Position numbers and translations under genes: made by a program. Below, piece by piece: positions 1-40,200 of a stretch of 64,000 bases of DNA. Under the pieces are notes generated by a model. It made no database searches and was not told the DNA's origin. It saw nothing but the letters and a program-made list of their open reading frames with translations. Source of the stretch: Haliotis cracherodii (lineage: Eukaryota); NCBI RefSeq assembly GCF_022045235.1, contig NW_027266300.1, positions 310,001 to 374,000 on the forward strand. The letters run 5' to 3'. Numbering within the stretch: the first letter of the stretch is position 1; every line of letters starts with the position of its first letter.

Positions 1-1847
1 GCTCAGGTCTTAAGTTTGATTAATTATGTGATGACGATCTAATGATCGTCATATTATCAAGATGACCTATATTGAGGAAATAATTTATTCGTATTCCTTG
101 GTTTTGGTACGGAATGCGTAGCATGCTTGTCCTATGAAGTTGTTTTTCTCATCTTCATCAGTGCCACAGTCTAGTGAGAATTTGTCTGAATCTCTGTGTT
201 GTAATTAGTGAGCTCTGACAATACTAAACGAAGCTCTTCCTCAGATATCTTACCATTAGCTTGTGCTGTTGAGATATGATCCTCAATGCTATTTAATTTT
301 ACTTCAGTCAGCACACAAATACTATCATGTTTTAAGGCTTGCTTTTGCATCCAGGGGGAAATATATTAAGAGCTGTTCCTGCCACTCCAGAGACTCTGGC
401 TGCTACTTCCCTTCCAAGTACGACACGCACAGCGATAACAGCTGATTAAAAGCCAACACCGTCTTCACCAAGACCCTACTAGTTACTAAAAGTACAGTGT
501 CCTTTCCATGAAGAGCAGTCACAGCTCTATGATACTTTATATACAACTCAATTCTCCAGTTGCTCTTTAATTCCACTTATTTGTTGTAATTGAAATTCAT
601 TTACAGTATCCATCTTTTCAAACACTTCATGGAGTGCAGGATATAAATTCATTATGTATAATATATAAGAGTGTTCAACTGTTCCAATGGCAATTTCTTG
701 AGACTATGCATCATAGGCAGTTTGGCGGGGTATAGGTTTTAACATGGAGTCTATAAGTTTCATGTATTCCCTCTGTTAAGTTAAGTTGCTCATATCTATT
801 TAAGTATTCACAGTGCTGCCAATACAAATTATAACAGCGGCTGGGGTATCATTACCATGGCCAGCAGCACAGAGTCAAGTGGTTGTAATTGTGGATGAGG
901 TGCGGGATACTGCATGCTGACAATTAATGTAACGTAAAACTATACATGGCAGTCTGTGAGTCGAGACTTGACCCTTGGACAGTGGCTAGGCTGGTGGACC
1001 CTCTAGCTTACGTCTCCGAGAGGCTTACTACATGGATATGATGTAGCAGGATACTATCAGAGAATAAACATTGTTGGCCCTCAGACAGACTTGTGTTGCA
1101 GAAATACCCGGTAGAACACGAACTTCTTACTGAGATATATGCATTAAGCTTATTATTATATTATAAGGCATAAATATTTTAGTGAGTCAAATGATCCCTG
1201 CATAAAAAACAAACGTATATGGTAACTCTTGATGATTTCAAATACTGCTACAAATATGTCACTCTTGTTTTTTTTTGTCTCAGTTAAGCCTTAGACCCAG
1301 TCATAACTCGAGATAATCTTCTGGTGGATCCCCAAGCAAGACTTCGATAAAAAGTGTAGAGCCTCCAGCTAAAGATCAAACTTAAGCCAATATTTTTAAT
1401 GTTGGGCGGCTCATCAACATATGGTTTCTTTGGCATTGGAGCAATGAAAACACTTTTTCTGTTGGGATATAAGCCTCCCACTGTTCATTATTTTATCTCA
1501 ATCATGTGTCTTACCCTTTGGCATTACATGTAGTTGACTAACGGTGATATTTAGTAGCCAGTCGATGTTTGCTTCAAGCATAATCCGTTGATAACATCAT
1601 TGAGGGCAAGATTGTACAAGGTGTTATAACTGGGAGTTCAAACCTCAAGATCTTGTAAATCTCCTATATAACTTGCCACACTAGCGGCAGTAAATATAAC
1701 CTCTTCCACTTGTTTATACCATCTTGCAAGTGTAAAGCATATAACATGTCTTGAATTACAGGTCTATGAAATCCTTCAGTGTCTCCAAGATCAGAAAGTG
1801 CAATTGTATTACATTGTTTAAGGTGATGCATTCCAGGACCTGCAGAA

Positions 1848-2330
1848 TCAACCATTATTAATAATATGAAGTGACACGCTCAAATATCCTATATGGACAG
1901 GTTGATGTTTTATATCTAAAACAGAAACTTTGAGTTCTGTATTAATGCCTTTCCTTAACTTCTTATACTGCAAAGATAAGAAAGATTCTGTTCTATCACT
2001 GTTGTATTTTTCATCTTTGACTGGAATAGCCCTCAGCAGAGTTGGAAGACTTTCATGTTGGATATTATCTGTTGTACTGATCTGGTCAAAGGGATGCACA
2101 AGTCTGGAGAGGGAACTAAATTGGTTAGTCTTTCCCCACTCTTACTTGTGCTTGGTCCAACTTCTTTTCCTGCAAATCCAAGTATATTTGCAAATTCACC
2201 AGCAAGTTTTATACTATTTTGTATTGATATTTTGCATTTTGTGTGATACTAGCACCATAAGGCTTACACATTTCAGTATTGAGTATTAACTTCAGTTGAA
2301 GCAGCAGTGTCTGTTAGGTCATCAAGTTTA
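1848..2330 (-). pseudogene. Polinton minor capsid (penton-like) protein remnant
   Basis: Frameshifted translation ...FANILGFAG...DQISTTDN...LLRAIPV...QYKKLRKGINTELKVSVLD resembles Polinton/adintovirus minor capsid proteins. It lies divergent to the major capsid remnant. Recognised by eye only. Confidence 0.55.
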
Positions 2331-2376
2331 AAATCCGTTTTATATTAGATATTAAAAATATGTGTTTAACACAATC

Positions 2377-3450
2377 ATGTCTTTGCAATACAGACGCAAG
2401 TTAAATCCACAACGCAGACTGCACAGCCCATCAGGTGCCAAAGCTATTCACCAGTCTGTAACTATACTTAATAATCCGAGTACCATTGATCAGAATCAGA
2501 CACTTCTGGTTCGCTTTCCAAATATCGGTACTCATTATGTGATGCTTCCAGGAACTGCGCAACTAGCTTTAAGTTTGATGTATACTGATGATAGCAGGGA
2601 GCTTGTTCAATACATAGGTCGAGCAACTGTAAAGAAAACCCCGATTAAAATGAGTGGTTATGAGGTCTTGAGTATTGATGACAGTGATGTATACTACTGT
2701 TATATGGATCTCTGGAGAACGGCAGGAAAACGGAAAAACTTCCATTACCAAGGTATAGATACAAGCAATCACCGGAAATTCAACGAGACTCCGTGTAGGT
2801 TCCTCTATTGGCCCTGATCATCTTTGAGTTGAGGTGAAATGGGGTTTAAGGTCGCGTCCAAGATTATTGCACTTATATAGCGACGCGCATGTACGTGTGT
2901 GTGTGTGTTTGTGTGGCTGCTTGTACTAGTCCGGACTGATGCAGATTTATAGTGCTAGCTCACTGAGATACCATGCGGCAATTTAACATGAATACCCCAC
3001 TCAGACACAGTATACTGACTCCGAGCCGACCAGTCCTTGTTTTAGCCCCTTAATGCCGAGCGCCAGACAGGGTAACAACAAGTACCATCTTTTAACGTCT
3101 TTTGGTATGACGCGGTTGGGGATCGAACCCCGGACCTTCCGCTGATCGTTTTTGAGAAGACGAGGCTATACATGATGCATCAGGTAACCGATTCTATATT
3201 CCACTTGAATTTGAATAAGTAGAGAGGCACATGCCCTTCTACAAAGCATCACTAGGTGATATGTTAGAATATGAACTTACTTTTAATGACTACCACAGAG
3301 TAATCAAAACCACCGGTGAAGAAGCTAGCTTTACATTAACAATATCTCACTGGAGTGTGAGGCTGGTAAATAAAACTTATATTTGTATGTGATTATGGAT
3401 GTTCAACTTAATAAACAAAATGGATGGAACATTCTATTAATATTCTTTTA
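2377..3450 (+). pseudogene. Polinton/adintovirus-like major capsid protein remnant (SINE-interrupted, internally deleted)
   Basis: RKLNPQRRL...NNPSTIDQNQTLLVRFPN...IGRATVKK...SIDDSDVYYCYMDLWRT. After the SINE it continues RFYIPLEFE*...LEYELTFNDY...NISLE, then the C-terminal LYVIMDVQLN. Confidence 0.65.
2820..3141 (-). mobile_element. 5'-truncated tRNA-derived SINE in the capsid gene
   Basis: B-box GGTTCGATCCC on the minus strand near 3120-3130. Similar to the 48876-49127 copy. Flanked by CTGATC (2814-2819 and 3142-3147), a possible TSD. Confidence 0.8.
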
Positions 3451-3990
3451 CTATAGGATCCTCACTGCACTATCATATGTGGGCAAATTGGTTTTGGTAA
3501 AACAGCTTATATTCTCGAAATTTTATGAGGCCATTTTTACAATTTTTTGTGCGTGTCATTATTCAAAGTCCAACCATAAACGTTCATAAAACATACCCAT
3601 GAAGAAAATGGAGAATGGAGGTTCCCTAGGTGTACAAAATTGACCCAGGTGAACATCTCCAAGAATAACGGGAGAACCAACCCATTTTATTATAGACGAC
3701 TTCAATGCGAGAACAAAACTTTCAAAAAAAAGAAGATATACTTTCTCAGGTTAACCTATGAAACATAGTGTTTGGGTACTTTCTCAAAAATGCAATTCAG
3801 CCCTGAAAGATCTCAGAGAGCAGACGCGTTGGATTGTCCTGTTTCATTGCAAGGATCAAGATTCATTTGAGGAACGTCTACGTGAAAATGATGTTATTCC
3901 TACTAAGAGCGAGCGACAACAATTTCGAAAACTGTTAGCGGAAACCAGGCACTCTAAACTCATATGAAAAACTGACCAACCACCTGCTTA
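3424..3990 (+). pseudogene. A32/FtsK-like DNA packaging ATPase remnant
   Basis: Walker A ICGQIGFGKT (G at 3481), Walker B FIIDD (about 3688-3700), then KHSVWVLSQK...LREQTRWIVLF...LRENDVIP. Contains stops and frameshifts. Confidence 0.8.
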
Positions 3991-4649
3991 TGCAATTGCT
4001 TAGCAACTGCTTAGCAAAATATAACAACTGCTTAGCCAATTGAACACCTACAACCATTTGCTTATACAATAATGTTGTGGCAAATACTCATTCCTTTTCA
4101 ACAGGTTATTATGTCTGGTTGTATTGTTAATTTCATTTTAAAAAAATATTAAATATAAGCTATTGTATTACGCTAAGAAGATGGAATGCAATCAACTTCT
4201 AAAACAACTGCTCCTAGACATAAGTACCCACCTAATAGTACTGGAAGCGGAAACACTGACACAACAAGTTGTGTAAATACCAACACTGGTGGAAAGAATG
4301 ACTGAGACCCTAAGAAAGTAGCAATGGTTAAAGAAGTGGTTACGGATAAAAAGGCAAAACTACTACAACACAGTTCATACACTGAGTGGATTACAACTTG
4401 GGCTCTATATGCACTCGCTACGGTTGTAGAATGGTAGAATGTTGGTATCCTTCAGCAGTTGCCAGCAGTTTAGCTATCGACTATGCTCGAATAGGTAAGA
4501 TGACTACTAAAGCTAGAACTGGAATACATGTCATGGCAATAAGGAAAGGACATATTAGCTATCCATACTCTGTGTGTGGAAGTGGGGTCAAAGGTCAGTT
4601 TTGTTTAATTAAATAAATCGATCTAAACCCTTTCCACGTCCAATAGAAA

Positions 4650-5200
4650 TCTCTGCATAAAGCAGAGTCGATTGTACAGTTCCTATATCTATATCATGAG
4701 CATGTGTTTATGAATCACTTTCGAATTGTAATGATACCAGGTGTTCGCGAAAAGGTGAGCGTATCCTGCCCCACCTGTGGCACCCATAACAAACACACGC
4801 AAAGGCAATTCAATTGTTCACCTGACAAACACATGGGAACATATGGTACAAGTCAAAATAGGGAATTGCATCGGACACAATTTTTGTCACTGATGCGTCA
4901 AATGTCCTCCACATGTCTACCATAAAACATTTTGAAAGCTTTTCTGGGGCCTTGAATGTTGTAACATTGATCAAACAACTTCTGAGCAAGAGGGGTATGA
5001 CGCTCTTTGAAATCTTGTTAGAAAGAGCATGCTCGATTTTATCTCAAAAGTTGTCAAATGTAAACACCAAAGGCTGGAGCTACTAGAATATTGCTCGACA
5101 TGAAGGGAAAGTTGACTATTGGAAAGTTGAAGTCATCCCTCTTGCCGTACAGTCTTGTGGTGAGTGTTTTGTCACTCTGAATCTTTAGGCATAAAATATC
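4650..5200 (-). mobile_element. Penelope-like retroelement 3' fragment
   Basis: Minus-strand translation TRLYGKR/DDFNFPIVNFPFMSSNILVAPAFGVYI*QLLR...KAFKMFYGRH matches the C-terminal RT region of Penelope-like elements. Boundaries are approximate. Confidence 0.7.
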
Positions 5201-6982
5201 CCCTTTAAGCAAGGCCCATGGGTCTGACAAAAAACGGCTCCAGATTAATTACGATAGTAAGAGGGAGTACGTCAATGAGAGAAATAGTCTGTGTGGAATC
5301 AATATTTTTTATTACATTGAAAATAAACCAGACAGTTCACATGTAATTATACTGTACCATGACTTCTGTCAGAGAGCTGAAAGCCTTGGCAAAACACTGG
5401 GATGACTTGAGAGGTTATTCACGAATGAGAAAAGCTGACCTTACTTGGTCTGAACTACAACAAACCCCCGACTGTCAGAAAACTCAAAGCCCAGGCAAGT
5501 AGTCGTGGGCTGAGAGGTTATATTCTTAAGAGAGAAAAGCTGAATTGATTGATTTACTGAATGACAACAAAAAACCAAATGATGAACCAGTCGAGTTAAG
5601 ATTTGTACCCACAAACCATACTGGTGGTAGATATCTAGGAGGTTGGAAGATGGATATTAATTCCAACACGGATGTTGATGAAGTTAAACCCATCATTTCA
5701 AGGAAAATTAACGAGGAGGTAGATGATTTGAAAAGTATAAAATATCAGCTAACTGTTATAATGTCTAAAAATAACACCGAAGATAGCGTTGAATATACTG
5801 AACCTTATTTCATGAACAACCATGAAGTAACAACTGAATCGAGTTCAATAAGTTCATCATTAGGTACATCACTTCAACAGAAACAAGAAACTTTGGAGGA
5901 ATGGACTATTGGAGGTTCAGGTGGAGTTGTGGATAGATTTGATACTTTATATTTAGTTATAGCAGATTATATGCCTTGGAAGGTGGATCTTATATAGATT
6001 TACCCCCATATCATAAGAAAAAACATGCCATAATTAAAGTAAAAAATAATGATAATAATTGTTAATATTGGGCATTAGGATCTGCCTTATTTCCTGCAAA
6101 CAAACATTCCGATAGACCTACGAGCTACCCCCCAAAATGATGGACTCAACTTTAAAAGTATAGATGCACCTACAGCAATCTCGCAAATTAATAATGTAGA
6201 AAAGCAAAATAATTTAGGTATAAATGTATTCAGACATTTAAATCTGTTGTACACAAGAGAAGCTCTGCCCTAGAAAATATTCCCAGAATAAATTTATTTC
6301 TGGTTAAAAAAAGATGGTAAATATCATTATATGTGGATAAAGAGTTTAAGTGAGCTGTTATACGGTCAATCAACCCACACAAAAAAAAGAAATATTTCTG
6401 TGAAAGATGTCTGCATGGATACAGCAGGCAAGATCTTTGCATAAAGAAGACTGTAGAAGTGTTGGGCAGACTGCTGTCAGGATCAATATGTCCAAAGAGG
6501 ATAAAAATATAAAAAAAATGATTGTTATTGTAATCAAAAGCCAGTGACATAACATAATAAATGCCGATTTGAAGCACTTATAACAAAAGTTGAAAATACT
6601 GAATACAGTACTGAACGCAGTCACACATACAACGCACAAGAACATAAGGCGCTTCATAGACTGCGTGCTTAACGCAAACAACGGTGGAACCCGCCTATAA
6701 TTGTAAGGTTTGTGTCAAGGGATGATAAAGCATCTGTAAACTTCAAGGCCAAAGAGCAGTTAAAGGGAACTACCGCGTTTGTTTTTACTTATTTTGTTTA
6801 ATTTCAGTCAGTTCGACCTACAGAGAAAAAGACAGGTCACAACAGTGGAGGTGTCGCGGTATGTGTTAGTGATAAACTTTCATCCTATTGTTCACGGATA
6901 CATGACGAATAGGTTGACTGTGTTTTATTGTGTCCAGTGATGTGCTTATTACTGGTAGAAGGCTAATTTTGGACACACACAC

Positions 6983-7117
6983 TCTCGTCACGCCGAAGAC
7001 CCGGGTTCGATTCCCGACATGGGTACAATGTGTGAAGCTCATTTCTGGTGTCCCCCGCCGGGATATTGCTGGAATATTGCTAAAAGCGGCGTAAAACCAT
7101 ATTCACTCACTCACTCA
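6983..7117 (+). mobile_element. tRNA-derived SINE with (ACTC)n tail, inside the LINE
   Basis: B-box GGTTCGATTCC, body ATGGGTACAATGTGTGAAGC, tail CACTCACTCACTCA. Similar copy at 58503-58652. Confidence 0.8.
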
Positions 7118-7430
7118 TTTATATTTTATTGCAAAATGGTATTCACGGCGTTTTGGTATTATCCGGAGCAAGTACAATGATGTTAACGCAACTGTAACAT
7201 TCGATGAGTATGTTGATAGTTCATGTGGGGTAAGACAAGGTTTTACTCTTAGTCCAGTACTGCTTTCTTTGTTTATCAACGAATAAGTTATACTTTTGGT
7301 AAGTAAATTCGATGATGGCGTTTTTTCATCTCAGAGGAAATGTAAAATATTATTGCCATATTGTTTTCTGGCGATTTATAACTTGTTGCAGACAGTGTCT
7401 TAAAATTACAAAAAACGTCTTTATGAATTA

Positions 7431-9001
7431 TACTCCTCACAAAAAGTTAAACAACAAGTATTATTTTCCGTGCAACATTCTCATCAGTGTTGAATGCCAT
7501 CCAATGAGAACAAATTCAGGCAGGAGAATTACCTACGAATACTCGACTTAAAGCCTTCTCCATGTAGAGTTTCCTGATAACACTGATAACATCGCCTGAA
7601 CACAAACACACATGCAAAATGCACGACATGCATGTTTTAAACACTTCACCCATGCACCCTGATTGCTTAAAAACTGCCAGCAAGGGCAATTTGTCCACAT
7701 TAACACTTTAGACATGGCTAGGCGTCACTTAACGCCAACTGAGGTTGCTCAGATTGTTGGAATGGTACAGGGGGGTCTCACCCAAACTGCTGTTGCCAAT
7801 CATTTTAATGTTCACAGCAGTGTCATCTCAAGAGTGATAACTCGATACCATCAAACTGGACCGATGACAGAGAGACCACGCACAGGTCGTCCAAGGGTGA
7901 CAACTCCTCGTGAGGACCGGTATTTAGCCACCCTGGCCCGGAGAAACAGGTTTACTATGGCCAGATCTCTCCAGAATGACCTTCAGAGAGTTGCAGGAAA
8001 CAGAGTCTCAACACAGACAGTGAGACTTCACACTCAGGATCTGAGGTCAAGACGACCAGTACGACGTATCCCACTGCCTGCACACCATCGACAACAGAGA
8101 CTTGCTTGGGCCAATCAACGCCGTAACTGGAGGGTCAATCGCTGGCGTAACGTTCTCTTCACAGACGAGTCAAGATTCTGCCTTGACTTCAACTATGGTA
8201 GGGCACGTGTGTGGAGAAACCGTAATGAACGATACGCCAACTGTACAATTGTTGAACACGACCAGTACGGAGGTGGAAGTTTGATGATCTGGGCTGGCAT
8301 CAGGGTTGGACACAGAACTGATCTTGTGGTCACCAGACGTGGTACCATGACTGTAGTACGGTACAGGGACGAGATTGTCACACCTGTGATCATTCCCCTG
8401 GCACAACAAGCAGGTCCTAACTTCATCTTTATGGATGATAATGCTCGTCCACATCGAGCAAGAGTTGTCACTGATCTTCTTCAGACCAACAACATCACGC
8501 ATATGGACTGGCCTGCAAGATCTCCGGATCGTAATCCCACTGAACATGCATGGGACATTCTTGGAAGGCGTGTTTATGGTCTTCATGTTCGTCCTCAGAA
8601 TCTGGATCAACTTGAACAGGCCTTAAGGAGAGAATGGCAGAACATTCCACAACAGACACTTGATAGGCTAATCTGGTCAATGCCAAGACGTGTAGAAGCT
8701 TGCATCCAAGCCAATGGTGGACATACACGTTACTGAACATTGGATCATTGTTTCAAAATGACTTAAACTCAAATTTAAAGATTTTCATCTTTAAGTGCAG
8801 CACATTTTACACGAGTGTTTTCATGATACTGTTTTTGATCATTTGTTAACCTGTTAGGCATAAACGCTTTTCAGTTCTCTTTGAGGACAATGTGTGTTTG
8901 TGATCTTTCTTTGTATTGCTTTAGTCAGTTTTTAGGTATTGGAATATATGAACATGGACTTAAACATAATATATTTGTTGCTTAACCTTTTGTGAGGAGT
9001 A
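7431..9001 (+). mobile_element. Tc1-family DNA transposon, full length
   Basis: TIRs TACTCCTCACAAAAAGTTAA and TTAACCTTTTGTGAGGAGTA, with TA TSD at 7429-7430 and 9002-9003. Removing the element restores the LINE frame YELYSYCYEW. Confidence 0.95.
7714..8736 (+). CDS. Tc1 DD34E transposase (340 aa, open frame)
   Basis: N-terminal paired-like HTH with GRPR, FTDESRF, MDDNARPH, WPARSPDRNPTEHAW and GGHTRY; 34 residues between the second D and the E. Confidence 0.92.
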   Translation: MARRHLTPTEVAQIVGMVQGGLTQTAVANHFNVHSSVISRVITRYHQTGPMTERPRTGRPRVTTPREDRYLATLARRNRFTMARSLQNDLQRVAGNRVSTQTVRLHTQDLRSRRPVRRIPLPAHHRQQRLAWANQRRNWRVNRWRNVLFTDESRFCLDFNYGRARVWRNRNERYANCTIVEHDQYGGGSLMIWAGIRVGHRTDLVVTRRGTMTVVRYRDEIVTPVIIPLAQQAGPNFIFMDDNARPHRARVVTDLLQTNNITHMDWPARSPDRNPTEHAWDILGRRVYGLHVRPQNLDQLEQALRREWQNIPQQTLDRLIWSMPRRVEACIQANGGHTRY

Positions 9002-11448
9002 TATATTCATACTGTTATGAATGGGGTATGGATATTGATACTGAGAAGGGTAAAATTATTGTTTTTAAAATGGGATTCTAATGGTGAGCGAATGAAAACA
9101 ATTAATGCCTGTAAATATTTGGAACTTATTTTCTCTCCCAGATTAATTTGGAGCTTTATATGAAACTTTACATGAGCATAAGGAAGAGAGCAAACAAGCA
9201 TTTCGGCCAGTTAAACCGTGTATAAGACATTAGGATACCTCGGTTCCGGAAGCCGTTTTTAATATTTGATAAACAAATTGTTCCGATATTCATGTAGGAT
9301 GCTTAGATTTGGGGATGCAAATAATGGGATGGTATTGAAATAATGCTTTACACATTTTTGTACATTTTTACTTCACACGGGCTACAGAACTGCAGATGCA
9401 GTGGCCTATGGTGAATGTGGCAGGTATCCACTTCATACTATTTACCTTACAAATACACTAAATGTTGGATTTTGCAAATGACTCCAAACAGATACCCACA
9501 CCAGTGTTATAAAATGTTATCCATTGCTTATAGAAAACGTCTTAACTGGGCATCGCATATCAGACTTTTGCTAAGTCGTTATGGTTTTGGGGATGTATGG
9601 GCTGCACAAAGCGTTGGCAATACAGAAATATTTGTACATATGTTCAGCGAAAGAGTTAAAGATTGTTCGTACAAGATTGGCATGCATATCTAGGCAGCAA
9701 TGCCCTATCAATCATTAAACTGGATAAATCTTACACTGTTTGCGAAAAATATTGAGCAAATATTAAGCACTGTGTATATAGCAGGTTAATAACCAAATTT
9801 AGATGTGGACAAAATACTCTTGGTATTCAACTTGTCCGTAGGGGTGTTGCTAAATTTGAGGGTGATACCGTCGTCGTATGTTAACACTGTCAGTAATTAA
9901 GGATGAACGCCATGACAGTTACAATTGTCCTCTTTATGCAAATCAGTTAATCATCCTTTTTGTTAAGAAAGACTCTGTCAATTATATAACATTGATACAA
10001 TGATACATTTAGCAAGATTTCTAATGTACGTGTTCTCAACCAAAGAAATGATCAATTACCTAACTCCCAGATAAAAATATATGTGATGTAAATGTATTTT
10101 GTACAATGGGTCAATTGGCCTTTATACAAATAAATATGTCTGTGTATAAGGCTTGTGGGTTTGGATATATGGTTGTAAAGTACGACAGAAAAGCAAATGC
10201 CCCTGTGATTTACATGATGCAGCAGAAACGTTCCTAGAATCACTACCAAATAAACAGATAATAATCAGGGATAATTTATCGCATTCGAAGCCCATGAGTG
10301 TGACAAGGACGGGTAGGGAACCTGTGAGAAGGCAACAAGTTGTCAGCTGGTAATAAACCCATGAATGGGGATACTGTAAGAGATCATTGCCACATCACAG
10401 GTCAAAAACAGAGGAGCCCGGCATTATAAGTGTAACATAAAGCTTAAAATAAATCCCCAAACAAGACCAATGCCCCTTGTATTTCCTCATCTTCGAGGTT
10501 ATGTTTCTCATCTCATCTCCTCATACAAGCTATCTCAGAGACTGATGGAAGTTTAACATGTATTCCTAATAACATGGAAAGACATATATCCTCCTTTTGA
10601 GTCAAACTATACATAATTCAGACAGGGATGCGAAAGCAAGAACAAAACAAGGTAATGAACATAGATTCATAGATAGCATACAGTTTCTGTTATCTTCTCT
10701 GGACAGTTCAGCTAATGCAAACAATCCCGAAGACTTTGCTATAACAAACCAATATGCTGAAAAACTCGTACCAAATTTGATGGATAAGACAAAATATATA
10801 GTCTACTGTAGAAATCTCTAGTTATATCTATCATAGAGCTCTCAAGTTTGATCAAATCCCTTGGATGGAGCGCTATATGAGGCTGAACACAGATAAGAAA
10901 GCAGGCAACTGGTGATTTCGAAAAGAAATTGTATGAGCTCATGAATAACTCAGTATTTGGTAAAACTATGGAGAATCTAAGGAAACGTGTTGATGTTAAA
11001 TTTGCCAGATCTCACGAGGAAGAACGATTTAGTAAACTAATGACTAGTCCAGCTATTAACAGAAGTAAGATATTTGATGATGACTTAGCAGCATTACATA
11101 CGAGGAAGAGTAATACAAACTGCAACAGACGAGTAAACGTTGGTATGAGTAATCTTGAATTGTCAAAACAATTAATGTATGACTTGTATTACAATGAACT
11201 CAAAAAGCAATATGATGATAGGTGTGAGGTGTTATATACCGATACAGAGTCTTTGTTAATGGAAATACAAACTGATGATGTGTATAGAAGTATGACAGAA
11301 AAAATGAATACATAATATCCAAGTTACTACCCAAATGATAATCCATTGCTCAGCACAGTCAATATAAAGGTATTATGTAAGATGAAGGGCGAATGTGCTA
11401 GAACTCATATTGCTGAGAATGTTGGATTAAGACCGAAGATGTATTCTA

Positions 11449-12183
11449 TACTCACACGCAAAAGAAACGCAAGTGGTTTTAAGCAAATAGGTAACAAACA
11501 CGGAACCATAAATTGATACGAGTTTTAACATGCAGTGAAACCTGAAGGTGTTATCAATATTTTTGGTTGTATTTTGGAAGCCCCTGAGTAAAGACGCAAC
11601 ATAAAAAACGAATCGCCAAAACGCACCATTTCAATGTATATGTGGGTATCATGCGCCCATTTCTCGCGAAATCGATAATGCACGAACTGTCACGAACTAT
11701 AGTGGGTATAAAACTGTAGCCGATTCTTGGGCCTACCACTCCTTGGTCAACAATGCCACGCCTAACTCAAATTCAGAGAAACCAGGCTATCGGACGTTTG
11801 GAAGCTGGAGAGTCCAACCAAGATGTTGCCCGTCATTTCAACGTTAACATAACCACAATTTACCGTCTCCTGCATCGATACAATGCTACACAGACCACAG
11901 ATGAGCTTCCTCGGAGCGGTCGGCCTAGGGTCAACATACCTCAACAAGATCGGCAGATTACCCGTCAACACCAGCGACATCCGTTTCTAACTGCAAGTGA
12001 AAGTGCTCGACAGACCATAGGAACACATAATCGACACATTAGCGGGGACACTATGATCCGATGTCTCCATTCCAACAACCTCAGATGTAGCCGACCAGCA
12101 CGCCGTCCTGTTCTACACGGCACGACTTCAGTGGGCACAGGGTCATCGCAATTGGCGTCATCGTGAGTGGAGGCGTGTGAGTA
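11449..12183 (+). mobile_element. Internally deleted Tc1-like element in pPolB
   Basis: Ends TACTCACACGC and GCGTGTGAGTA with TA TSD (11447-11448, 12184-12185). The N-terminal transposase ORF starts at 11753 (MPRLTQIQRNQAIGRL...SGRPRV) and has no DDE domain. Confidence 0.9.
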
Positions 12184-12436
12184 TATAAAGAAGTCTGATA
12201 ATGAGTAGATAAGAAACGCTAAAGGTGTTAAGAAGTATGTGGTTACAAGACATGTAAAACAAGAATACTATAAAGAGGCATTATTCAATGGTAGAACATT
12301 CAAACATGAGTGGAATACTTTAAGAAGTGTCAATCACAGGATATATAGATTCAGAATGAACAAGACATCATTATCCCCCTTTGATACAAAGACATGGATT
12401 GACAATGACGGTGTCACTACCTATGCTTATGGTTAC

Positions 12437-13100
12437 TTAGGGAGGTATTACTGTATCGCTTGGAAATATAAGCAACTCTTCTCGCACAAATCCTCTGCCT
12501 GGCCCATCTTTAAGATGATATAAAAAAGGCCCACCTTTTTTCATAACCAATAGACTAATGTTTTATATCTTAAGATGCCAAACTGGATCAGTTGCAGGAC
12601 GTTGGCCTCCTTCAAGTTCACCAGGCTGGTATAAATATTTTACACTTACTCTACCTGGACGTTTTTGTTCTTTACCTCTCCGTGGTGTTGAAGATTCAGA
12701 AGTCACAGATTTCATTTTAACAGCATCAGAGGTCATCCATTCCGTTGATTTTTTTCAATCAGTCATCATCATCTCCTGAGCATATTGATATCCAAAACAA
12801 GCATTCTGATAATGTTCAGTTAAATCTTTCAACAATAGATTTGCTACGGTGGGCTCTTTTTCGCCACACCTGATTGCAACATCGTGTTTTGTTAATAGTT
12901 TAGTTACTGATCCCATAAACTCGCGTCCAGGATTTACTTGGAATAACTTATTCCTCAGAATATATCGTTGGGGTGGCAAGTATATTTGCATTATTGCTTG
13001 TTTCTTTAACCAATCCTTAGCAACATCTTTAGATACTTTAGCCACTGCAACTAATTTTGTATTGTATCCTTTACCTTTCCAATATCCATGTTAATTACTA
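12437..13100 (-). pseudogene. Retroviral-like (rve) integrase of the Polinton
   Basis: GYWKG...WLKKQAIMQIYLPP...QVNPGREFMGSV...IVERFNRTL...GYQYAQEM...YLYQPGELEGG...TDPVW...GFVREELL. Convergent with pPolB; deletions and frameshifts present. Confidence 0.85.
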
Positions 13101-13980
13101 TTGATTTTCCTTTAATACAACGAAAAAAATCATGAAGATAAATGTTACATTAGTGTATAACAATGGACAATTACTAGACAACAAAAGAACTTGAGAATGC
13201 TGCCAGGGCGTTCATGTGCCCCTCCAGAATGATCAAATAGTGAGAATTACCGCAAGGCAAATATCTTATCACGGATGTAAAACCATGCAAATAAGGTTAT
13301 CAATTGTATATTAGTAAAATAACAGAGAATATTTTCATTATTATGTGGTTTAAAAGTTTCGTCATTATGGGATGGCATCTTGCTGGCGATCCACATAGTT
13401 AATAAAACTTAAGACTACACTACGCACAAACTACTCATTCCAATGTTATCAAGGGTGGTGAGGCAGAGTCTGAACATCAGTATGTCGGCTGATTCAATCA
13501 ATACTGAATGTAATATTCCAATCTCATTAAATTCATTTCCTCCCTTTGAAGTGATTCCGTCAAAAACCATCGTCTGTCTCTTGCTTCAGTGGGATAAACA
13601 TTTGAAACAGAAGAAACAACTTTAGATATCTTCTATTCCAAAAATGTCTTTTTTTTCTTATTTCGTGAACATTGTCAAACTATGTTTCAAAGCTCAGCAG
13701 GGAATGGAATTCAAACAGTTCGAAACTAGTGCTGTAAAGCTCGAAAAACATGCTTCTGATTGGCTAATGACGATACTTGTTAATGATTTCATTGGTCGGT
13801 CAAAGTTCGCGAAAGGTCGCATTACCATGTGTATTAACATTTGATGTTACAACAGCAGGTGTACTGTTTCCTATTAGAACTAATCAACGTTTTGATCATT
13901 TTGAAACCAACAGTTACCCATTAGAACAAAGAAGATTGAAGAGTTTGATATCTGTTTAGCTCAATAGTTCAGTGTCAATC

Positions 13981-16377
13981 AGACAGACAGACAGACAGTG
14001 GTTTGTTTTTTGTATCAACATTGTACAGACCCGTGTAGGTCATAATAAGTTTACATATAATATCAACGTCTAATTTCAAAAATCTTCTTCAAGAATATTG
14101 ACAGAGATGATATTGTATTAGCATTGCGGGAGTTCAAAAAAAACCATTCATTAGTTGTTCATCTTTGTACATAGTTGAAATCATAGGGAGGTATCTATTT
14201 CTAAGAAACTGATAATATTTACAAATGAGAAGTACATGAAACTCATCCTCAACATAGCCTTCATTACAATAACGGCATAAACTACTTTCTTTATCTTGTA
14301 CATTTTTGTACATTATCTTTCTAAGATTATCAACATTAAAATTATGTAATGATATACGTAATTTACACAAAGATCTTCTCAAAGTTCTATCCTGAAGTAC
14401 AGATACATATATTTCAGGAACAAGTAATGATTTTATATTCGTATAATGGCATAAAAACCTTGAGGATGATATTTGACAGTGCCAATCTTGTGAAAATATA
14501 TCAAGTAATCTTTGCTTAAGCATGAAGATAAATAATTTACCATTTCCAACATCTTGAGATATCCATGCAAGAGAAAAACCAGACATACAAAGAATATTCC
14601 TGATATCAGACACCCATAAACAATATTTACCTTTTTCATCCAAGGCTTTTAACATATTATAACAATGAAGAGGAAATCTATTTGAGCTTTATCCAGTATT
14701 TAACTGCCCGTAGCTGGGATGAAACAAAAAGACTGGTACGACCAGTTTCTCCTAGAATGGCTTTGTTAGAGGTATATTTACCGACACCTAAAAAACGTTT
14801 AAATGTTTTTCTATCGAATCGTTATAATGACATCCCCATATTTCTGAACCATACAGAAGAATTGGTGCTATTTTTCTGTCAAAAATGTCCGAAACAACTC
14901 GGAAAGATATAAATTTGTTTTCTTTAAAAACTCTATAGACAGAAATCAAGGCTTTAGATGCTTGCAGAGCCAACTGCTTACATGCTGTTGACCATGCTAA
15001 TCGAGAAGATACAGTCAATCCTAAATATTTATAATATGAAACAACATTGACTGTCTTATTACAATACGTCCATTTTTCAAATTTATGTAAAATACCATCT
15101 TTCTGAAAACAATAACATTTGTCTTTTTCAAATTTACTTCAAGGCCCCATTTCTCACAATATAGCTGGAGAACATTTAACTGTTTCTGGAGGCCACTGAC
15201 TGAAAATGATAATAAAGCAATATCATCAGCAAATAGTAACAGCATTATATCAATTATATCTTGTGACACAAAGACATTTCAGTTACAAGTTCATTTATGA
15301 AAAATATAAATAGGACAGGGCTGAGTACACATCCCTGTCTTACACCAGCTGAAGTTCTGAAACATTCAGTGATTCCTTTATCTGTCTTGATACATGCCTT
15401 AACTGATGAGTACATGCTCTGTAGAACGTTTGACAACTTGCCTGGTAATCCTTTAGTAATTCATAAAAAAACCCATCATTTTCTTTCTATCCACATAGTC
15501 AAAAGCCTTTTTGAAATCAATAAAGGCACAATAAAAACGAGCCTTGGATTTAATAAGATATTTTGTCCACACAGATTGAAGAATAAATATATTGTCTGAT
15601 GGAGAATAGTTGGGTCTAAATCCAGCTTGGGACAGGTCATTCACATCTAACCATGTTCTAATACGTTTTTCAATTACAACAGAAAACAATTTGCCAGTCA
15701 CATTTAAGAGAGAAATACCTCGATAGTTGCTTGGATCAGATATGTTTCCAGATTTATGTAAAGAAATAATCATTCCTGTATTCCAGGAATCTGGAAAAAC
15801 ACCAGTACCTAGAATTTTATTAATAAGCTGCCCAAGATAAGGGTTTATGAAATTTGTTATACTTTTCAGATATTCAGGGGGTATACCATCCTCACCTGCC
15901 GCCTTACCCACTTTTAACTCATTTAAAGCTTGTTTAATTTCATTTTCAGTAATTTCACCCGATAAGAGCCGGTCAGTAAAAGGCATATAATTACAATGTT
16001 GACATGAATGGGAATCTAAACATTCCTGAACTGATTTATCAAATTCATTTACATCTCTGTTAAAATCTGGATTTAATAAATTCTTAAAATATCTAAACCA
16101 AGTGTCAGGGGTTATATCACCTTGTCGTGCGTTACTTCTCAAATAGAGCTTTATAGTATTCCAGAACTCTTTACAATCATTCATATTTGCAGCCTCGGTT
16201 AATTTCTGACTCATATGTCTTTTATACTCATTTTGTTTAATTTTACACTTCTTTCTGAATTCAGTTTTTGCACATAAATAGTCTTTTAAGTTTGAGTCAC
16301 TCTTGAATGATCTGAAACGATTTAGTAGCATGTATTTCTTAGATTTAAGTTGACAGCACTCTGCATCAAGCCATAAC
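13981..16377 (-). mobile_element. 5'-truncated LINE (RTE-X-like), RT plus C-terminal zinc finger
   Basis: NYRGISLL, QAGFR, FIDFKKAFD, GVRQGCVLSP, LLFADD and CRYC...EDEFHVLLIC. (TCTG)n tail. 11-bp TSD CAGTGTCAATC at 13970-13980 and 16378-16388. Confidence 0.92.
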
Positions 16378-16502
16378 CAGTGTCAATCTAATGTAATTAA
16401 GATTGATCAGATAGGAGTAGAACATATCACTCTGATTGTAATATTCCAACTGCTTGACCTCTTTTCTGATTCCTACCTGGACTTCCCCTTCCCCCTGTAA
16501 GC

Positions 16503-18658: not shown

Positions 18659-18805
18659 NNNNNNNNNNNNNNNNNNNNNNNNNNNNNNNNNNNNNNNNNN
18701 NNNNNNNNNNNNNNNNNNNNNNNNNNNNNNNNNNNNNNNNNNNNNNNNNNNNNNNNNNNNNNNNNNNNNNNNNNNNNNNNNNNNNNNNNNNNNNNNNNNN
18801 NNNNN
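18659..18805. other. Assembly gap (147 N)
   Basis: Run of N followed by (GA)n and poly-G. Confidence 1.
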
Positions 18806-18859: not shown

Positions 18860-20790
18860 TATTGAATGAACACTTCATTACTCAAATCTTTTAGTTGTAC
18901 ATATAGAATGTTGTACTGCCTTAAATATAGCTTCATTTTCTGTAACAACGTGATCTGCTTTGCCGTATAACAGTAAGTGTACATCAACAGGTATGTTATG
19001 AACAATATTTTTAAGGCTGTTTAACATAATTTCACGCTGATGACTAAACAATGTACATTCCCTGAAATAATGATATGCATTTTCACATGTATTCGAACAT
19101 GTACAGTTCGGGTGATCTTTTATACCAATTCTATATAAATCATAATTCAATTGACTGCACATGTACCTCAGTATTGTGTGTAAGATATCATATTTTCTTT
19201 TTCGTATGCAAAGTACGTAGTTGACGTGGGGTGGTGCTTTTGTAACGGATTTTTAAAACAAGAACTCGTAGAATTTCGATCTGATAACGGAATAGAGTTC
19301 CACAATCGGATAGACGATGGGTAAAAGGATTCACACGAATGTCTTAGTCTTGTGAGAGGAACACTGATGTTTTCAGAGTTTCTGAGACTGTATGAGTTTT
19401 TTGCAGCAACGGTTTTGGGTAGAATATATGTTAGATAGGAAGAGGCCATGTAATGATTAATTTTAAAGAAAAGACAAAGCTTACGTTTCTTTCTACGCTC
19501 AACTAAGGGTTCCCAACCGGTTTCGTAATATAATGAATGCCTGGGGGCATATTTAGGTAGACCAGTTACAATGATTTCAGCTTCTAATTGTAATTGTTCT
19601 AATTTCTCACTTCGTCCTTCGGTGCAACCATCCCTAACCTCACATGCGTGGGATCTTATGAACATTTTATATATATTGTTCATAGTATTTCTGTGAAGTA
19701 GATGTTTGAGTTTTCTGATTGAGTAAATCATCTTGGAAGTTGTTTTAATTATGGTATCTATATGACAAGACCATTTGCCACTGGCTTCAAGTATAACACC
19801 CAAATTCTTATGACAGAGCTGATTTCCTTTCCGTTGAAATATAGTTTTAGACCTCCATTGTTGTCTTTGCGAGAGAATAGAAGAACCGATTTAGTCTTTT
19901 CGGGATTGTAAGTTATTAGCCAAAGTTTCGCCCATTCACTTAAGATTGCTAAATTTGTGCTTAAGGAACGTTCCAGTACACTGTTATCATTGGATATGAC
20001 ATGCCAATCGATGTATCGTCGGTAAACAGCCTTGTCATACAGTCTAATGTATCAGCAATGTCATTTACATAAACAATAAAGAGTATAGGACCAAGCACGG
20101 ACCCCTGTGGCACGCCAGCCTTCATGTATCTTGGTTTGGATATTTCCCCATTCACAAATACGCCTTGGCTACGATAACTTATGTAACTGGTAATCCATTT
20201 TAACAAATAGCCCTTTATACCATACCTCTCTCATTTAAACACATCCCCACTGTGCCATACACGATCAAAGGCTTTTGATACATCACAGAATACAAAACAA
20301 TAGTTTTCTTTGTTATCTAACGCTGTACAATTTTGGTGGTAAAGTTCTATTAGTTGATGGGCAGTTGAGTGACCAGCCTGAAACCCAGATTGGTACTTAT
20401 ACAACAATTTGTTCTCATGAAAATAATTATATAAATGTTTGAACACAAATCTCTCAAACAATTTTCCTAAACAGCTAATAAGTGATATCGGTCTATAATT
20501 AGAAACGATAGTGTGATCACCTTTCTTAAATAATGGCACAACATTTGCTTTTTTCCACACTGATGGAAATATACTTGATTGTAGTGACATATTGAACAGT
20601 AAACACAATGCTTCGCTAATAGCATATACAGTTTTCTTTAATAATTTACAAATTTTGTCCGGTCCGGAGGCTTTGTTTGTATTATGTCTTCAATTTCCTT
20701 TTTAGATATGATTATGTTGTTCATCTCTGTCTCTGTACGAAATGTGAAGTCGGGCATAGTTGTTCTTGTATCATAGACATCATGTTTCTG
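18860..20790 (-). mobile_element. Degraded CR1/L2-group LINE fragment
   Basis: NYRPISL, QSGF, FCDVSKAFDRVWH, GVPQGSVLGP, LFTDDT and a C-terminal CTC...HYFREC. Contains frameshifts. Confidence 0.9.
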
Positions 20791-37208: not shown

Positions 37209-40200
37209 ATGTCGCAAGGCGAGGAGCAGACGACACCCGTACAGGGTTTAACAAGGAAATTATTTCAGTGTGTGGATTTTATTCAGGGCTATTTTGTAGA
37301 CGCTGCCCTGTTTTGTTTCTTTCTCTCGCGGCACATGTCTCTGCCGTTATTCCAGGAATATGTTCAAGATCAAATCCACAAAAAACATAACCTCAACTTG
37401 ATAGACATCCAGAAAGGCATGAGTGGGAATGAGACAAGCTCCTGGCACGAGGCTCAGCAGGAAAGTGTGCTCGCAGTGTTAGGACTCCAGATTGCGGAGG
37501 GTTTACCGGCCATCATCACCGTCCTCATCCTGGGGGCTGTCAGTGACAGAACAGGCAGACGGAAGATCCTTCTGTGGCTTCCCTCGCTGGGGAGTGTTGC
37601 ACATTCTCTCATCTATGTTCTGATTCTGTACACCGGATGGAACCTGGATGGCCTGTTTATGGCGTCGGCCCTCAGGGGAATCAGTGGGAGTATGACTGCC
37701 TTCTTGGCGGGATCAACTTATTTTGCGATTAACAGTGTTAAACCAAATCAAAGAGCCTCGCGCCTTGCTATCCAGGAGTTTTTGAACGGCGGTGCATATG
37801 CTCTTGGTAATATCATGGTTGGATTCTGGGTCAAGTCCAGTGGATTTTTGCAACCATTTTGGTTCACTTTGATCTGTGGAGTGATCGCCTTCTTGATATC
37901 CTTCTTCCTGGTACAGGAGTGCCCACTCAGCGAAGCAGACCGACCGGTTCGACACAGAAGGACTGGAAATTGTTGCAAAGATTTGTTTGCACCGATGGCC
38001 AAAATATTCAACTGTTGTAAAAACCGAGGCCTGATTAAAGTCTGGATGGCCATTTTAGCTTTCCAGACGTACGCCGCAGTGCATATTGGGCAGGAGAATG
38101 TCTTAGTGTTGTATCTTAGTGGACAGCCGTATTTGTATTCCTGGCGTACGGATGTGACGGGGCCTGGGCCGTACGTGAAGATCGGCCTGTTCTTGTCCGT
38201 CATCATGGCTGTGGCAGCTGCGGCCGTAGCGCTGAGTCCACCGATAATGAGGAGGTTTCTGACAGAATCAAACATCGCCTTCATTGGATACTTCTCCAAG
38301 GCCCTGGGCACCCTCTGGATTGCTGTTGTTCATAATGAAACAATTTTATATTTTGGTAAGTCAAATAAGGTCAAGTCTGTATAGAAATTAACAATTTGCT
38401 TTCAACACTCCCTAATTCTGTAAGTTAGAAGAAGTTCTATCATTGGGATCAAATGAAGACTGAACAACTGTTGACCTGTGAAGATCCAGGGTAGAATAGG
38501 TCTTCAGCATCCCATGCTTGCCGTTAAAGGCATCTATGCTTGTCGTAAAAGGCATCTATGCTTGTCGTAAAAGGCATCTATGCTTGTCGTAAGAGGCAAC
38601 TAATAGGATCGAGTGGTCATCCCCATTGCGTGGATCGATGCTCATGATGTCAATCACTGGTCGAGACTCAATTATTTACAGACCACTGTCATATAGCTGG
38701 AATATTGCTGAGTGTGGCGATAAACAACAAAGAAACAAACAAAACTGAACAACTGTCAATCATGTATGTATCAAAACATTCATCTACCATCTCTATGGCA
38801 CAGTTGTGTTAGATACTGGCATCCCCTTGTCGTGTCAGGATCCACTGATGCTGCATCAAGTGTGTTGGGGTCCTGGTGAGCACCATACTTGTAACATGTG
38901 TACTCAACACTTTCACCAGTGCTAAAATCTAAAACTTGTGCCTTGTTTGCCTTCCTCCCCTTTTTAAAGGCAAATAAGCAGTTACAATGGTTGCAGCAAG
39001 TTTCTTTTAGGTCATTTAAACACCAAGTCATGTCTCTGCCAACTTGAGTATCTTATTATATATCAATTAATCTTACAGTTAATGATTACCCTAATCTCAG
39101 ACACTATGTCTGCTTCACACTAATGAAGTAATTACATCTTGACCTGAAGCTATGCTGAATACATGCTGAAGCTGGGCAGCAGAGAAGTCTGTGAGCTGAC
39201 ATGTTATATATGCCATGGTAAGACTGTTCCACTCAACTTACCAACGGTGAGGGATGGCTGGGTAGCGTAGTGGTTAAAGGCAGCCTTCGAAATTCACACT
39301 GCTACATATTTTGTGCTGAGGACAAGTAAAGATCTCATAACATTGTAAACATTTTGTCCTGGTTCAGGACTAGCTACAAACTCTTGACAGGTGAAAAGTG
39401 CAAACTAAGGTTTCCCCTGGTACTCTGGACTGGTCTTTCCACCCACACAACTGCTCCCACCCCTAACCCTGACTAGTCTTACCACCCACACAACTGCCCC
39501 CACCCCTAACCCTGACTAGTCTTTCCACCCACACAGCTGCCCCCACCCCTAACCCTGACTAGTCTTACCACCCACACAGCTGCCCCCACCCCTAACCCTG
39601 ACTAGTCTTACCACCCACACAGCTGCCCCCACCCCTAACCCTGACTAGTCTTACCACCCACACAGCTGCCCCCACCCCTAACCCTGACTAGTCTTACCAC
39701 CCACACAGCTGCCCCCACCCCTAACCCTGACTAGTCTTACCACCCACACAGCTGCCCCCACCCCTAACCCTGACTAGTCTTACCACCCACACAGCTGCCC
39801 CCACCCCTAACCCTGACTAGTCTTACCACCCACACAGCTGCCCCCACCCCTAACCCTGACTAGTCTTACCACCCACACAGCTGCCCCCACCCCTAACCCT
39901 GACTAGTCTTACCACCCACACAGCTGCCCCCACCCCTAACCCTGACTAGTCTTACCACCCACACAGCTGCCCCCACCCCTAACCCTGACTAGTCTTACCA
40001 CCCACACAGCTGCCCCCACCCCTAACCCTGACTAGTCTTTCCACCCACACAACTGCCCCCACCCCTAACCCTGACTAGTCTTACCACCCACACAGCTGCC
40101 CCCACCCCTAACCCTGACTAGTCTTACCACCCACACAGCTGCCCCCACCCCTAACCCTGACTAGTCTTACCACCCACACAACTGCCCCCACCCCTAACCC

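What the first reader, a model, noticed from the sequence alone, without database searches (positions are those of the whole stretch)
1..13435. Nearly complete fossil Polinton/adintovirus-like virus with a virion module and termini
Seen in the sequence: remnants of minor capsid (-), major capsid (+), ATPase with Walker A/B (+), pPolB (+) and rve integrase (-), a right end ...GCACAAACTACT, and a 22/24 inverted match between 7-30 and 13392-13415. Established: Polintons/Mavericks carry pPolB, integrase, ATPase and capsids and end in AGTAGT...ACTACT with 6-bp TSDs. Inference: this is an integrated, once virion-forming dsDNA virus, about 8-9 kb after removing insertions, and possibly an undescribed invertebrate lineage. 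I could not recognise a cysteine protease.
Basis: partly seen in the sequence, partly recalled or inferred. Interest (0 to 1): 0.8.

Follow-up and report, generated by a model that had tools for sequence, protein, structure and literature searches.

The report
Decayed integrated polinton-like DNA virus
This is the broken remains of a DNA virus that inserted into an animal genome, probably a mollusc's; it belongs to a little-studied group already annotated from abalone, which seems to lack the usual capsid-maturing protease and carries a possible sugar-binding spike gene.

Summary
The element is real. It ends in ACTACT, with a 22/24 inverted match at 7-30.

It is not nearly complete. About half the major capsid, the PolB core, the integrase core and three whole genes are missing. 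Four insertions (about 5.2 kb) split it. About 8.3 kb of an estimated 13 kb remains.

The lineage is not undescribed. Its gene order matches MeldLC027333 (abalone) in the supplement of a 2024 preprint (PMC11071296). That relative and Meld6842 list no adenain protease, and their integrases lack a chromodomain. The capsid resembles Nematostella Polinton-3, which groups with the polinton-like virus PgVV, not with classical adintoviruses. So the missing protease looks like a lineage trait.

New here: the gene behind the penton (labelled Glycot there) is predicted to have a ConA-like lectin head, a candidate receptor-binding spike. The left end and target-site duplication lie outside the window and are untested. 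Verdict: a dead copy of a known but thinly described lineage.

The parts
7..30 (.). Left remnant of the terminal inverted repeat; the true left end is outside the window or lost
   Evidence: 22/24 inverted match to 13392-13415, 0 of 300 shuffles; bases 1-6 match 1 of 6
213..650 (-). Broken gene for a hydrophobic membrane-type protein (labelled Slatt in the abalone relative)
   Evidence: tblastn of P0198, E 2e-15, two frames, 5 stops; by-eye match to MeldLC027333_Slatt
660..1100 (.). Unassigned stretch; the abalone relative has a second lectin-like paralogue here, but this DNA does not match the family profile
   Evidence: No Pfam or PHROGs match; best profile score -2.3 bits, within the shuffled range
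1157..1855 (-). Broken gene for a roughly 280-aa protein with a predicted ConA-like lectin head; candidate receptor-binding spike (labelled Glycot2 in the abalone relative)
   Evidence: 16 of 17 representative hits map here; profile A2 matches in three frames; intact relative modelled at pLDDT 72.6; Z 12.1, rmsd 3.1, 161 aligned to a cyanophage tailspike
1851..2290 (-). Minor capsid (penton) remnant, N-terminal part missing
   Evidence: 42% over 57 aa to P0200, E 4e-13; 46 of 74 C-terminal residues identical to MeldLC027333_Penton by my manual count; upstream limit read by eye
2377..3448 (+). Major capsid protein remnant in three pieces (about 2377-2800, 3156-3350, 3362-3448); about 190 internal residues, most of the second jelly roll, are absent
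   Evidence: intact relative P0001 is a double jelly roll, Z 21.6, rmsd 3.9, 320 aligned to PBCV-1 capsid
2829..3156 (-). Short SINE-like insertion in the capsid gene, flanked by a 13/15 direct repeat; related copy at 48899-49131
   Evidence: the SINE label is my inference from a tRNA box-B-like motif
3460..4003 (+). A32/FtsK-HerA-type packaging ATPase remnant, frameshifted; Walker A near 3481-3504, Walker B near 3686-3700
   Evidence: N-terminus matches P0016 and L001; body matches MeldLC027333_PacK by eye; motif positions counted by eye
4180..5330 (+). Remnants of three small ORFs of the abalone relative (start of Ayleven, a membrane-tailed hypothetical, a Cys-rich hypothetical), the last split by an insertion
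   Evidence: By-eye comparison of the translations; no tool score
4608..5208 (-). Inserted retroelement fragment resembling the C-terminus of a Penelope-like reverse transcriptase
   Evidence: Translation; family label recalled, no Pfam match; boundaries inferred from where the flanking ORF resumes
5359..12448 (+). Protein-primed PolB remnant (about 5359-6650, 10146-11448, 12186-12448) with N-terminal, OTU-like, exonuclease and endonuclease VII-like regions; a block holding Exo III and polymerase motif A is absent; many stops and frameshifts
   Evidence: relatives P0069 and P0110 pass the PF03175 cut-off
6651..10152 (+). Composite insertion in pPolB: decayed LINE with a SINE-like repeat (about 6953-7117) and a Tc1 element inside
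   Evidence: tblastx to the LINE at 14.5-15.4 kb, E 7e-21 and 4e-8; weak RVT_1 hit, E 0.022; the 7-nt flanking repeat is weak evidence (87 of 200 random window pairs give one)
7429..9003 (+). Tc1/mariner transposon with 33-nt inverted ends, TA flanks and an open 340-codon DD34E transposase (7714-8736)
11447..12185 (+). Internally deleted Tc1-type element with 13-nt inverted ends and TA flanks, inserted near the 3' end of pPolB
12437..13093 (-). rve integrase remnant; about 70 residues at the start of the catalytic core are absent and the DDE triad is not intact; it ends without a chromodomain, at the same place as its relatives
   Evidence: Translation compared by eye with the MeldLC027333 and Meld6842 integrases; no significant Pfam or PHROGs match
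13392..13435 (.). Right terminal inverted repeat (at least 44 nt) ending in ACTACT; next six bases CATTCC are the candidate target-site duplication
   Evidence: the (AGT)2//(ACT)2 end motif and 6-bp TSD are described in PMC8097293

Best explanation
A single integrated copy of a polinton-like dsDNA virus of the MeldLC027333 / Meld6842 lineage, now dead. Shown: gene identities, order, deletions and insertions. Inferred from the gene set and from established polinton biology: the intact virus (about 13 kb, linear, AGTAGT ends) replicated by protein priming with its own PolB, whose OTU-like domain would release the terminal protein; it built an icosahedral shell of double jelly-roll trimers with pentons at the vertices, filled by the A32-type ATPase; and its rve integrase inserted it into germline DNA. 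Unlike classical polintons it appears to have no adenain maturation protease and no integrase chromodomain. More speculative: the lectin-fold protein encoded directly behind the penton is the vertex spike that binds host glycans, and the membrane-tailed accessory proteins serve entry or an internal membrane. After insertion the copy lost about 4.9 kb, collected stops and frameshifts, and received a SINE-like element, a Penelope-like fragment, a LINE and two Tc1 elements.
For: Capsid family 59-70% identical and double jelly roll. pPolB family up to 76%, PF03175 in relatives. Gene order read right to left equals the list for MeldLC027333, minus Fus, Cah and Titinmem. Independent adjacency: capsid then ATPase in L001, P0016 and P0053; penton then lectin gene in P0200. 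No adenain among 16 proteins listed for MeldLC027333 or 13 for Meld6842. By eye the capsid shares motifs along its length with Polinton-3_NV, which is scored protease-negative and clusters with PgVV. The window's pPolB branch is 0.38 against a median of 0.048, as expected of decay (quick tree).
Against: Left end and TSD are not in the window, and bases 1-6 do not continue the repeat. The comparison with the annotated relatives is by eye, not scored. Gene order rests on the order of entries in a protein file; Meld6842 has the integrase in another place. Absence of adenain in relatives rests on another group's annotation of two genomes. The lectin match (Z 12.1) is tied with unrelated lectin-fold domains and shows no function; residues 1-77 of that model are low confidence. 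Stretch 660-1100 is unexplained. No virion or expression data were examined.
Confidence: 0.88

Rival explanations
1. A classical Alpha or Beta adintovirus (group 1/2 Maverick-Polinton) whose protease gene and chromodomain were lost only in this decayed copy.
For: The PolB is of the OTU-PF03175 type, and the relative's is labelled PolBa. AGTAGT-type end. The copy has many large deletions, and 660-1100 is unassigned.
Against: Two annotated relatives list no adenain, and their integrases end where the window's does. Their authors filed them as Meld, not Adinto. The 50 best viral-library matches of the capsid model were only 8-13% identical. The capsid resembles Polinton-3_NV.
Confidence: 0.07
2. 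The copy arrived already deleted, as a non-autonomous derivative moved within the genome by an intact helper. The viral ancestry is the same, but this insertion was a transposition and not an infection.
For: Large deletions hit capsid, polymerase and integrase cores while the right end is kept. Non-autonomous Polintons are listed in Table S1 of PMC4028283.
Against: Stops and frameshifts are spread over all genes, and no second copy exists in the 64-kb window. One copy cannot order the events.
Confidence: 0.25
3. A chance pile of fragments from different elements in a repeat-rich region.
For: The window is dense with repeats, and 39% of the span is unrelated insertions.
Against: Pieces of each gene resume in register across the insertions, and about ten genes follow the order and strand pattern of one annotated relative.
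Confidence: 0.02
4. The gene at 1157-1855 is an enzyme (glycosyltransferase or glycosidase, as the label Glycot suggests) or a host-modulating protein, not a virion spike.
For: The label in the preprint supplement. ConA-like folds occur in glycoside hydrolases (rows 5, 6, 15, 22). Atlas hits were under 0.9, leads only.
Against: The model is an all-beta sandwich, not a Rossmann-type transferase fold; no Pfam or PHROGs match; it sits directly behind the penton gene in the window, in P0200 and in both annotated relatives; the top structural match is a phage tailspike.
Confidence: 0.3

Closest known systems
MeldLC027333 (abalone, Haliotis; GenBank LC027333) in the supplement of Buck et al. preprint PMC11071296
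   Same: Same gene order and clearly the same protein families by eye: integrase, PolB, small ORFs, ATPase, hexon, penton, Glycot2, Slatt. No adenain listed, no chromodomain.
   Different: The window lacks Cah (376 aa), Titinmem (391 aa), Fus (141 aa) and parts of five other genes, has no recognisable Glycot1, and is riddled with stops and insertions.
Meld6842 (same supplement)
   Same: Same hexon, penton, Glycot, Slatt, ATPase and chromodomain-less integrase families; Alpha-class PolB; no adenain among 13 listed proteins.
   Different: More divergent; integrase and small ORFs are listed in a different position.
Polinton-3 of Nematostella vectensis and the PgVV (Gezel)-type polinton-like viruses (Aquintoviricetes)
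   Same: Capsid motifs shared along the length by eye. P3_NV is scored protease-negative and clusters with PgVV. Animal elements closest to aquintoviruses are noted for Octocorallia, Hydrozoa and Bivalvia, and cnidarian capsids fall outside the Maverick-Polinton cluster.
   Different: Only distant similarity; not scored or placed in a tree here. PgVV depends on a giant virus; nothing here tests such dependence.
Adintoviruses / group 1 and 2 Maverick-Polintons (Polintoviricetes)
   Same: OTU-bearing PF03175 PolB, rve integrase, ATPase, major and minor capsid genes, (AGT)2 ends.
   Different: No adenain, no integrase chromodomain, capsid not recognisably similar in sequence, terminal repeat short as preserved (44 nt against 100-1500 bp).

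Membership tests
Polinton/Maverick (broad sense) | Protein-primed family B polymerase | tested here: met
   (remnant; core block absent)
Polinton/Maverick (broad sense) | rve-family integrase | tested here: met
   By-eye match to two annotated integrases; the remnant itself gave no rve profile hit
Polinton/Maverick (broad sense) | Double jelly-roll major capsid protein | tested here: met
   Intact relative P0001 (66% identical to the remnant): Z 21.6 to PBCV-1 capsid; the top 14 rows are all double jelly-roll capsid or scaffold proteins
Polinton/Maverick (broad sense) | Single jelly-roll minor capsid (penton) | tested here: inconclusive
   Sequence match to a protein annotated as Penton; fold not predicted here
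Polinton/Maverick (broad sense) | A32/FtsK-HerA packaging ATPase | tested here: met
   (Walker A and B present, frameshifted)
Polinton/Maverick (broad sense) | Terminal inverted repeats with (AGT)2//(ACT)2 or (AG)3//(CT)3 ends | tested here: inconclusive
   Right end met; left side keeps 24 nt only and its terminus is outside the window
Polinton/Maverick (broad sense) | 6-bp target-site duplication | not testable with these tools
   Needs sequence upstream of base 1
Adintovirus as defined in PMC8502044 / PMC11071296 | PolB with N-terminal OTU-like domain | tested here: met
   The region aligns with P0066 residues 1-459 and by eye with MeldLC027333_Otu; fold not modelled
Adintovirus as defined in PMC8502044 / PMC11071296 | Integrase with C-terminal chromodomain | tested here: not met
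   The remnant stops where the two relatives stop; no chromodomain hit
Adintovirus as defined in PMC8502044 / PMC11071296 | Hexon recognisable by BLASTp against Alpha/Beta references | tested here: inconclusive
   No reference hexon was available to the tools; best 50 viral-library rows 8-13% identical; only weak Capsid_N Pfam hits in 6 of 6 relatives
Adintovirus as defined in PMC8502044 / PMC11071296 | Adenain maturation protease | tested here: not met
   None found in the window, with the caveat of decay and one unassigned 440-nt stretch; none listed for two relatives
MeldLC027333 / Meld6842 lineage | Shared hexon, penton, Glycot, Slatt, ATPase and integrase families in the same order | tested here: met
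   P0188 is nearly identical to MeldLC027333_Glycot2 by eye and maps to 1157-1855
Aquintoviricetes (PgVV/TSV-type polinton-like viruses) | Capsid and ATPase phylogeny grouping with aquintoviruses | not testable with these tools
   Reference sequences and the HMM set of 10.64898/2026.06.19.733378 were not available; only a by-eye likeness to Polinton-3_NV

The most novel reading that the evidence does not exclude
The element marks a widespread, still unnamed family of marine-invertebrate integrating viruses. It would join a PgVV-type capsid module to an Alpha adintovirus polymerase and a chromodomain-less integrase, mature without an adenain protease, and enter cells with a lectin-headed vertex spike and several membrane-anchored proteins. 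Surveys baited with adenain would have missed it, and intact members (contigs of 13-20 kb) may still form particles.
Probability: 0.4. Interest if true: 0.6.

Novelty: new member of a known kind. Interest (0 to 1): 0.32.

Why it matters
This copy is a fossil and of little interest alone; most polinton copies in animal genomes are degraded. Its value is as a pointer. The lineage has many close, apparently intact relatives in sequence collections (40 full-length capsids, 29 polymerases of 1150 aa or more in my searches), yet I found it only in a preprint's supplementary files and in passing remarks on animal elements outside the Maverick-Polinton groups. No virion of an animal polinton has been reported in the papers I read. 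A protease-free capsid and a candidate glycan-binding spike give testable handles on how such viruses assemble and enter invertebrate cells.

Tried and rejected
Whole-frame Pfam scan found only the Tc1 transposases. Pfam and PHROGs on penton, ATPase, integrase and small-ORF remnants gave nothing significant. Sequence search of solved structures with A1 and A2 gave no useful hit. No capsid match among phage records. The genome scan gave two loci: L001, a decayed relative in an archaeal MAG, and L002, a chance hit in a bacterial gene. The word-index search with P0185 found only itself among 1059 candidates. The trimer prediction for the lectin-fold protein gave no verdict. Inward extension of the terminal repeat was not significant. 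A second lectin paralogue at 660-1100 was not supported. A 9-nt repeat first taken as the flank of the Penelope-like insert was dropped: 27 of 200 random window pairs give one, and the flanking ORF runs through it. A 9-nt repeat near the second Tc1 was dropped in favour of inverted ends with TA flanks. The pPolB tree is a quick one on 137 columns; it groups the window with four unlabelled proteins (SH-aLRT 98) and names no host. Rfam found nothing meaningful in 1-14000. Motif searches in the supplements of PMC8502044 (text cut before its sequence file) and PMC11131425 (4,040 characters held) found nothing, which says little. The fold matches to neurotoxin binding domains reflect the common ConA-like lectin fold at 5-15% identity and were not taken as kinship. 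The viral and metagenome contig collections stayed unchecked.
Full report
OBSERVATION. The inverted match is real: 7-30 pairs with 13392-13415 at 22 of 24 positions, and 0 of 300 shuffles reached its score. The right end reads ACTACT at 13430-13435, then CATTCC. The (AGT)2//(ACT)2 end motif with 6-bp duplications is one of two known Maverick ends (PMC8097293, passages). The left terminus would fall about 14 nt before base 1. Bases 1-6 match the expected continuation at 1 of 6 positions, and an apparent inward extension is no better than chance (40 of 497 random segments, 63 of 500 shuffles). So one terminus is shown; the other, and the TSD, are untested.

MAJOR CAPSID. The open piece at 2377-2814 found 63 relatives among 190 candidates, 56-70% identical and mostly about 430 aa. 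The named ones are filed under Ca. Thiodiazotropha MAGs, which I read as host DNA from lucinid clams (inference). I folded the intact relative P0001 with a 40-sequence alignment (pLDDT 59.8). It matches double jelly-roll capsids: Z 21.6, rmsd 3.9, 320 aligned to PBCV-1, and Foldseek E 3e-14 to iridovirus, PBCV-1 and mavirus capsids. The window holds three pieces; 40 of 40 full-length relatives are covered only 36-54%, typically missing residues 212-403. Most of the second jelly roll is gone.

POLYMERASE, ATPASE, INTEGRASE, PENTON. The piece at 10890-11312 matched 1154 of 1305 candidates, best 76%; named hits are from Elysia, Thiodiazotropha MAGs and Actinostola. Relatives P0069 and P0110 pass the PF03175 cut-off, and P0066 and P0069 have sub-threshold endonuclease VII hits. 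Against P0066 the window covers 79% and lacks residues 669-913, which hold Exo III and motif A (motif patterns recalled). All 29 long relatives show such a gap. About 25 stops fall in the aligned stretches, some in out-of-frame parts. The ATPase has Walker A and B in different frames; its start matches L001 and P0016. Penton, ATPase and integrase gave no significant profile hit on their own, so their names rest and on by-eye comparison with annotated relatives.

One frame of 2-2371 (minus strand, stops as X) returned 17 representatives. Sixteen map to 1157-1855 and one to 213-646. The first family (about 280 aa, alignment A2, 11 rows) models at pLDDT 72.6, with a confident beta-sandwich from about residue 102 and a low-confidence N-terminus. 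Its best structural matches are ConA-like lectin folds: a cyanophage tailspike (Z 12.1, rmsd 3.1, 161 aligned), tied with neurotoxin binding domains, a carbohydrate-binding domain of an arabinanase and a pilin; Foldseek E-values were only 3e-4 or worse. The gene starts where the penton ends, in the window and in P0200. I infer a vertex spike with a glycan-binding head; a shared fold does not show function.

THE LINEAGE IS ON RECORD. A motif search in the supplements of PMC11071296 hit MeldLC027333, whose host is given as abalone. Its 16 listed proteins run: integrase, PolB (three pieces), Cys-rich ORF, Fus, hypothetical, Ayleven, ATPase, hexon, Cah, Titinmem, penton, Glycot2, Glycot1, Slatt. 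That is the window read right to left, by my eye comparison. The window has no room for Cah and Titinmem (767 codons) between the penton remnant (to about 2290) and the capsid start (2377), and no sign of Fus. Adding the missing genes and gene parts gives about 1640 codons, or 4.9 kb, so about 8.3 of about 13 kb remains (arithmetic). P0011 and P0110 both come with a 13,235-nt longest contig and the same sources, which fits that size if it is one contig (inference). Meld6842 has the same families in 13 listed proteins. Neither lists an adenain, and both integrases end without a chromodomain, as the window's does. The main text defines adintoviruses by BLAST-recognisable hexons and a chromodomain integrase and does not mention LC027333; a library search for the accession found 0 papers.

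PLACEMENT. By eye the capsid family shares motifs along its length with Polinton-3 of Nematostella. That element is scored protease-negative and its capsid clusters with PgVV (PMC4028283). Cnidarian capsids were the only metazoan ones outside the Maverick-Polinton cluster in PMC10120064, and ATPases from octocorals, hydrozoans and bivalves were closest to aquintoviruses in 10.64898/2026.06.19.733378. PMC11131425 also reports coral elements close to polinton-like viruses. The adintovirus survey was baited with adenain. The best 50 viral-library matches of the capsid model were 8-13% identical, and Pfam gave only weak Capsid_N hits. I could not run a tree with reference capsids, so the placement is a lead.

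INSERTIONS. Four blocks total about 5.2 kb: a SINE-like element in the capsid gene with a 13/15 flanking repeat and a relative at 48.9-49.1 kb; a Penelope-like fragment (label recalled); a decayed LINE carrying a SINE-like repeat and an intact-looking DD34E Tc1 element; and a deleted Tc1 element. The host is probably a mollusc, possibly abalone: this is inference from the named relatives and from a repeat type I recall from Haliotis, not from a call.

HOW IT WORKED. Shown: gene set, order, right end, decay. From established knowledge: protein-primed replication with a fused terminal protein and an OTU-like protease (PMC11071308), double jelly-roll trimers with pentons at vertices and ATPase-driven packaging (PMC4028283), and integration by the rve enzyme. 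Inferred: maturation without adenain, and entry through a lectin-headed spike. This copy cannot replicate, integrate or build a capsid. Whether it was deleted before or after insertion cannot be told from one copy.

PAPERS SEEN. PMC8502044: abstract, sections 3.1 and 3.2, passages, first part of the supplement (its sequence file was beyond the cut and could bear on placement). PMC11071296: passages, one section, three parts of supplement file 2 and one naming-key row. PMC4028283: two of four parts of the text, supplements 1 and 4. PMC11131425: abstract, one section, a search of its short held supplement. PMC11071308: abstract and first part of results. 10.64898/2026.06.19.733378: abstract, two sections, passages; supplements not seen, and its HMM set would decide placement. 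10.1101/2023.08.22.554363, PMC8097293, PMC10120064: passages. Others: search listings only. In seven completed searches I saw no title or abstract devoted to this lineage, or describing a lectin-fold spike in it; subscription journals are mostly not covered, and Starrett et al. do label Fiber and Lectin genes in other MELD viruses.

VERDICT. Real, correctly recognised as polinton-type, overstated as nearly complete and as undescribed. A new, dead member of a known but thinly described lineage. Interest 0.32; the lineage-level reading would merit about 0.6 if confirmed.

Noticed in passing
window 31-52: Perfect 9-bp hairpin with a 4-nt loop directly inside the left inverted repeat, with no counterpart at the right end (seen).
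   Followed up: partly
window 7429-9003: Intact-looking Tc1 element (open 340-codon DD34E transposase, 33-nt inverted ends), far younger than the virus and the LINE it sits in.
   Followed up: yes
window 660-1100: Unassigned stretch between the lectin-fold gene and the Slatt-like gene; matches neither Pfam, PHROGs nor the lectin-family profile.
   Followed up: partly
window 24157-30641 (-): Exons of a host gene with a lytic polysaccharide monooxygenase domain (PF03067, E 4e-14 at 26977-27483) and a Thr-rich tail; a Tc1 remnant lies at 28739-29491.
   Followed up: partly
window 37107-38384 (+): Long host exon of an MFS transporter (PF07690, E 6e-20).
   Followed up: partly
window 14134-16382 (-) and 18878-20689 (-): Decayed LINE reverse transcriptase remnants right of the element (RVT_1, E 5e-9 at 15456-16382); a 147-nt N gap at 18659-18805.
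   Followed up: partly
window 16500-64000: Many minisatellite arrays with units of 19-60 nt, several 1-2.5 kb long.
   Followed up: no
L001 1-3100: A decayed relative (capsid end, ATPase start, PolB on the opposite strand) sits in a contig of an archaeal MAG, and several capsid and PolB relatives are filed under Ca. Thiodiazotropha MAGs; probably animal-host DNA binned with microbes.
   Followed up: partly
window 5359-5450: The pPolB N-terminus aligns with P0066, which carries two Rho_N-type small helical domains (E 3e-13), a possible DNA-binding addition to the terminal-protein region.
   Followed up: no
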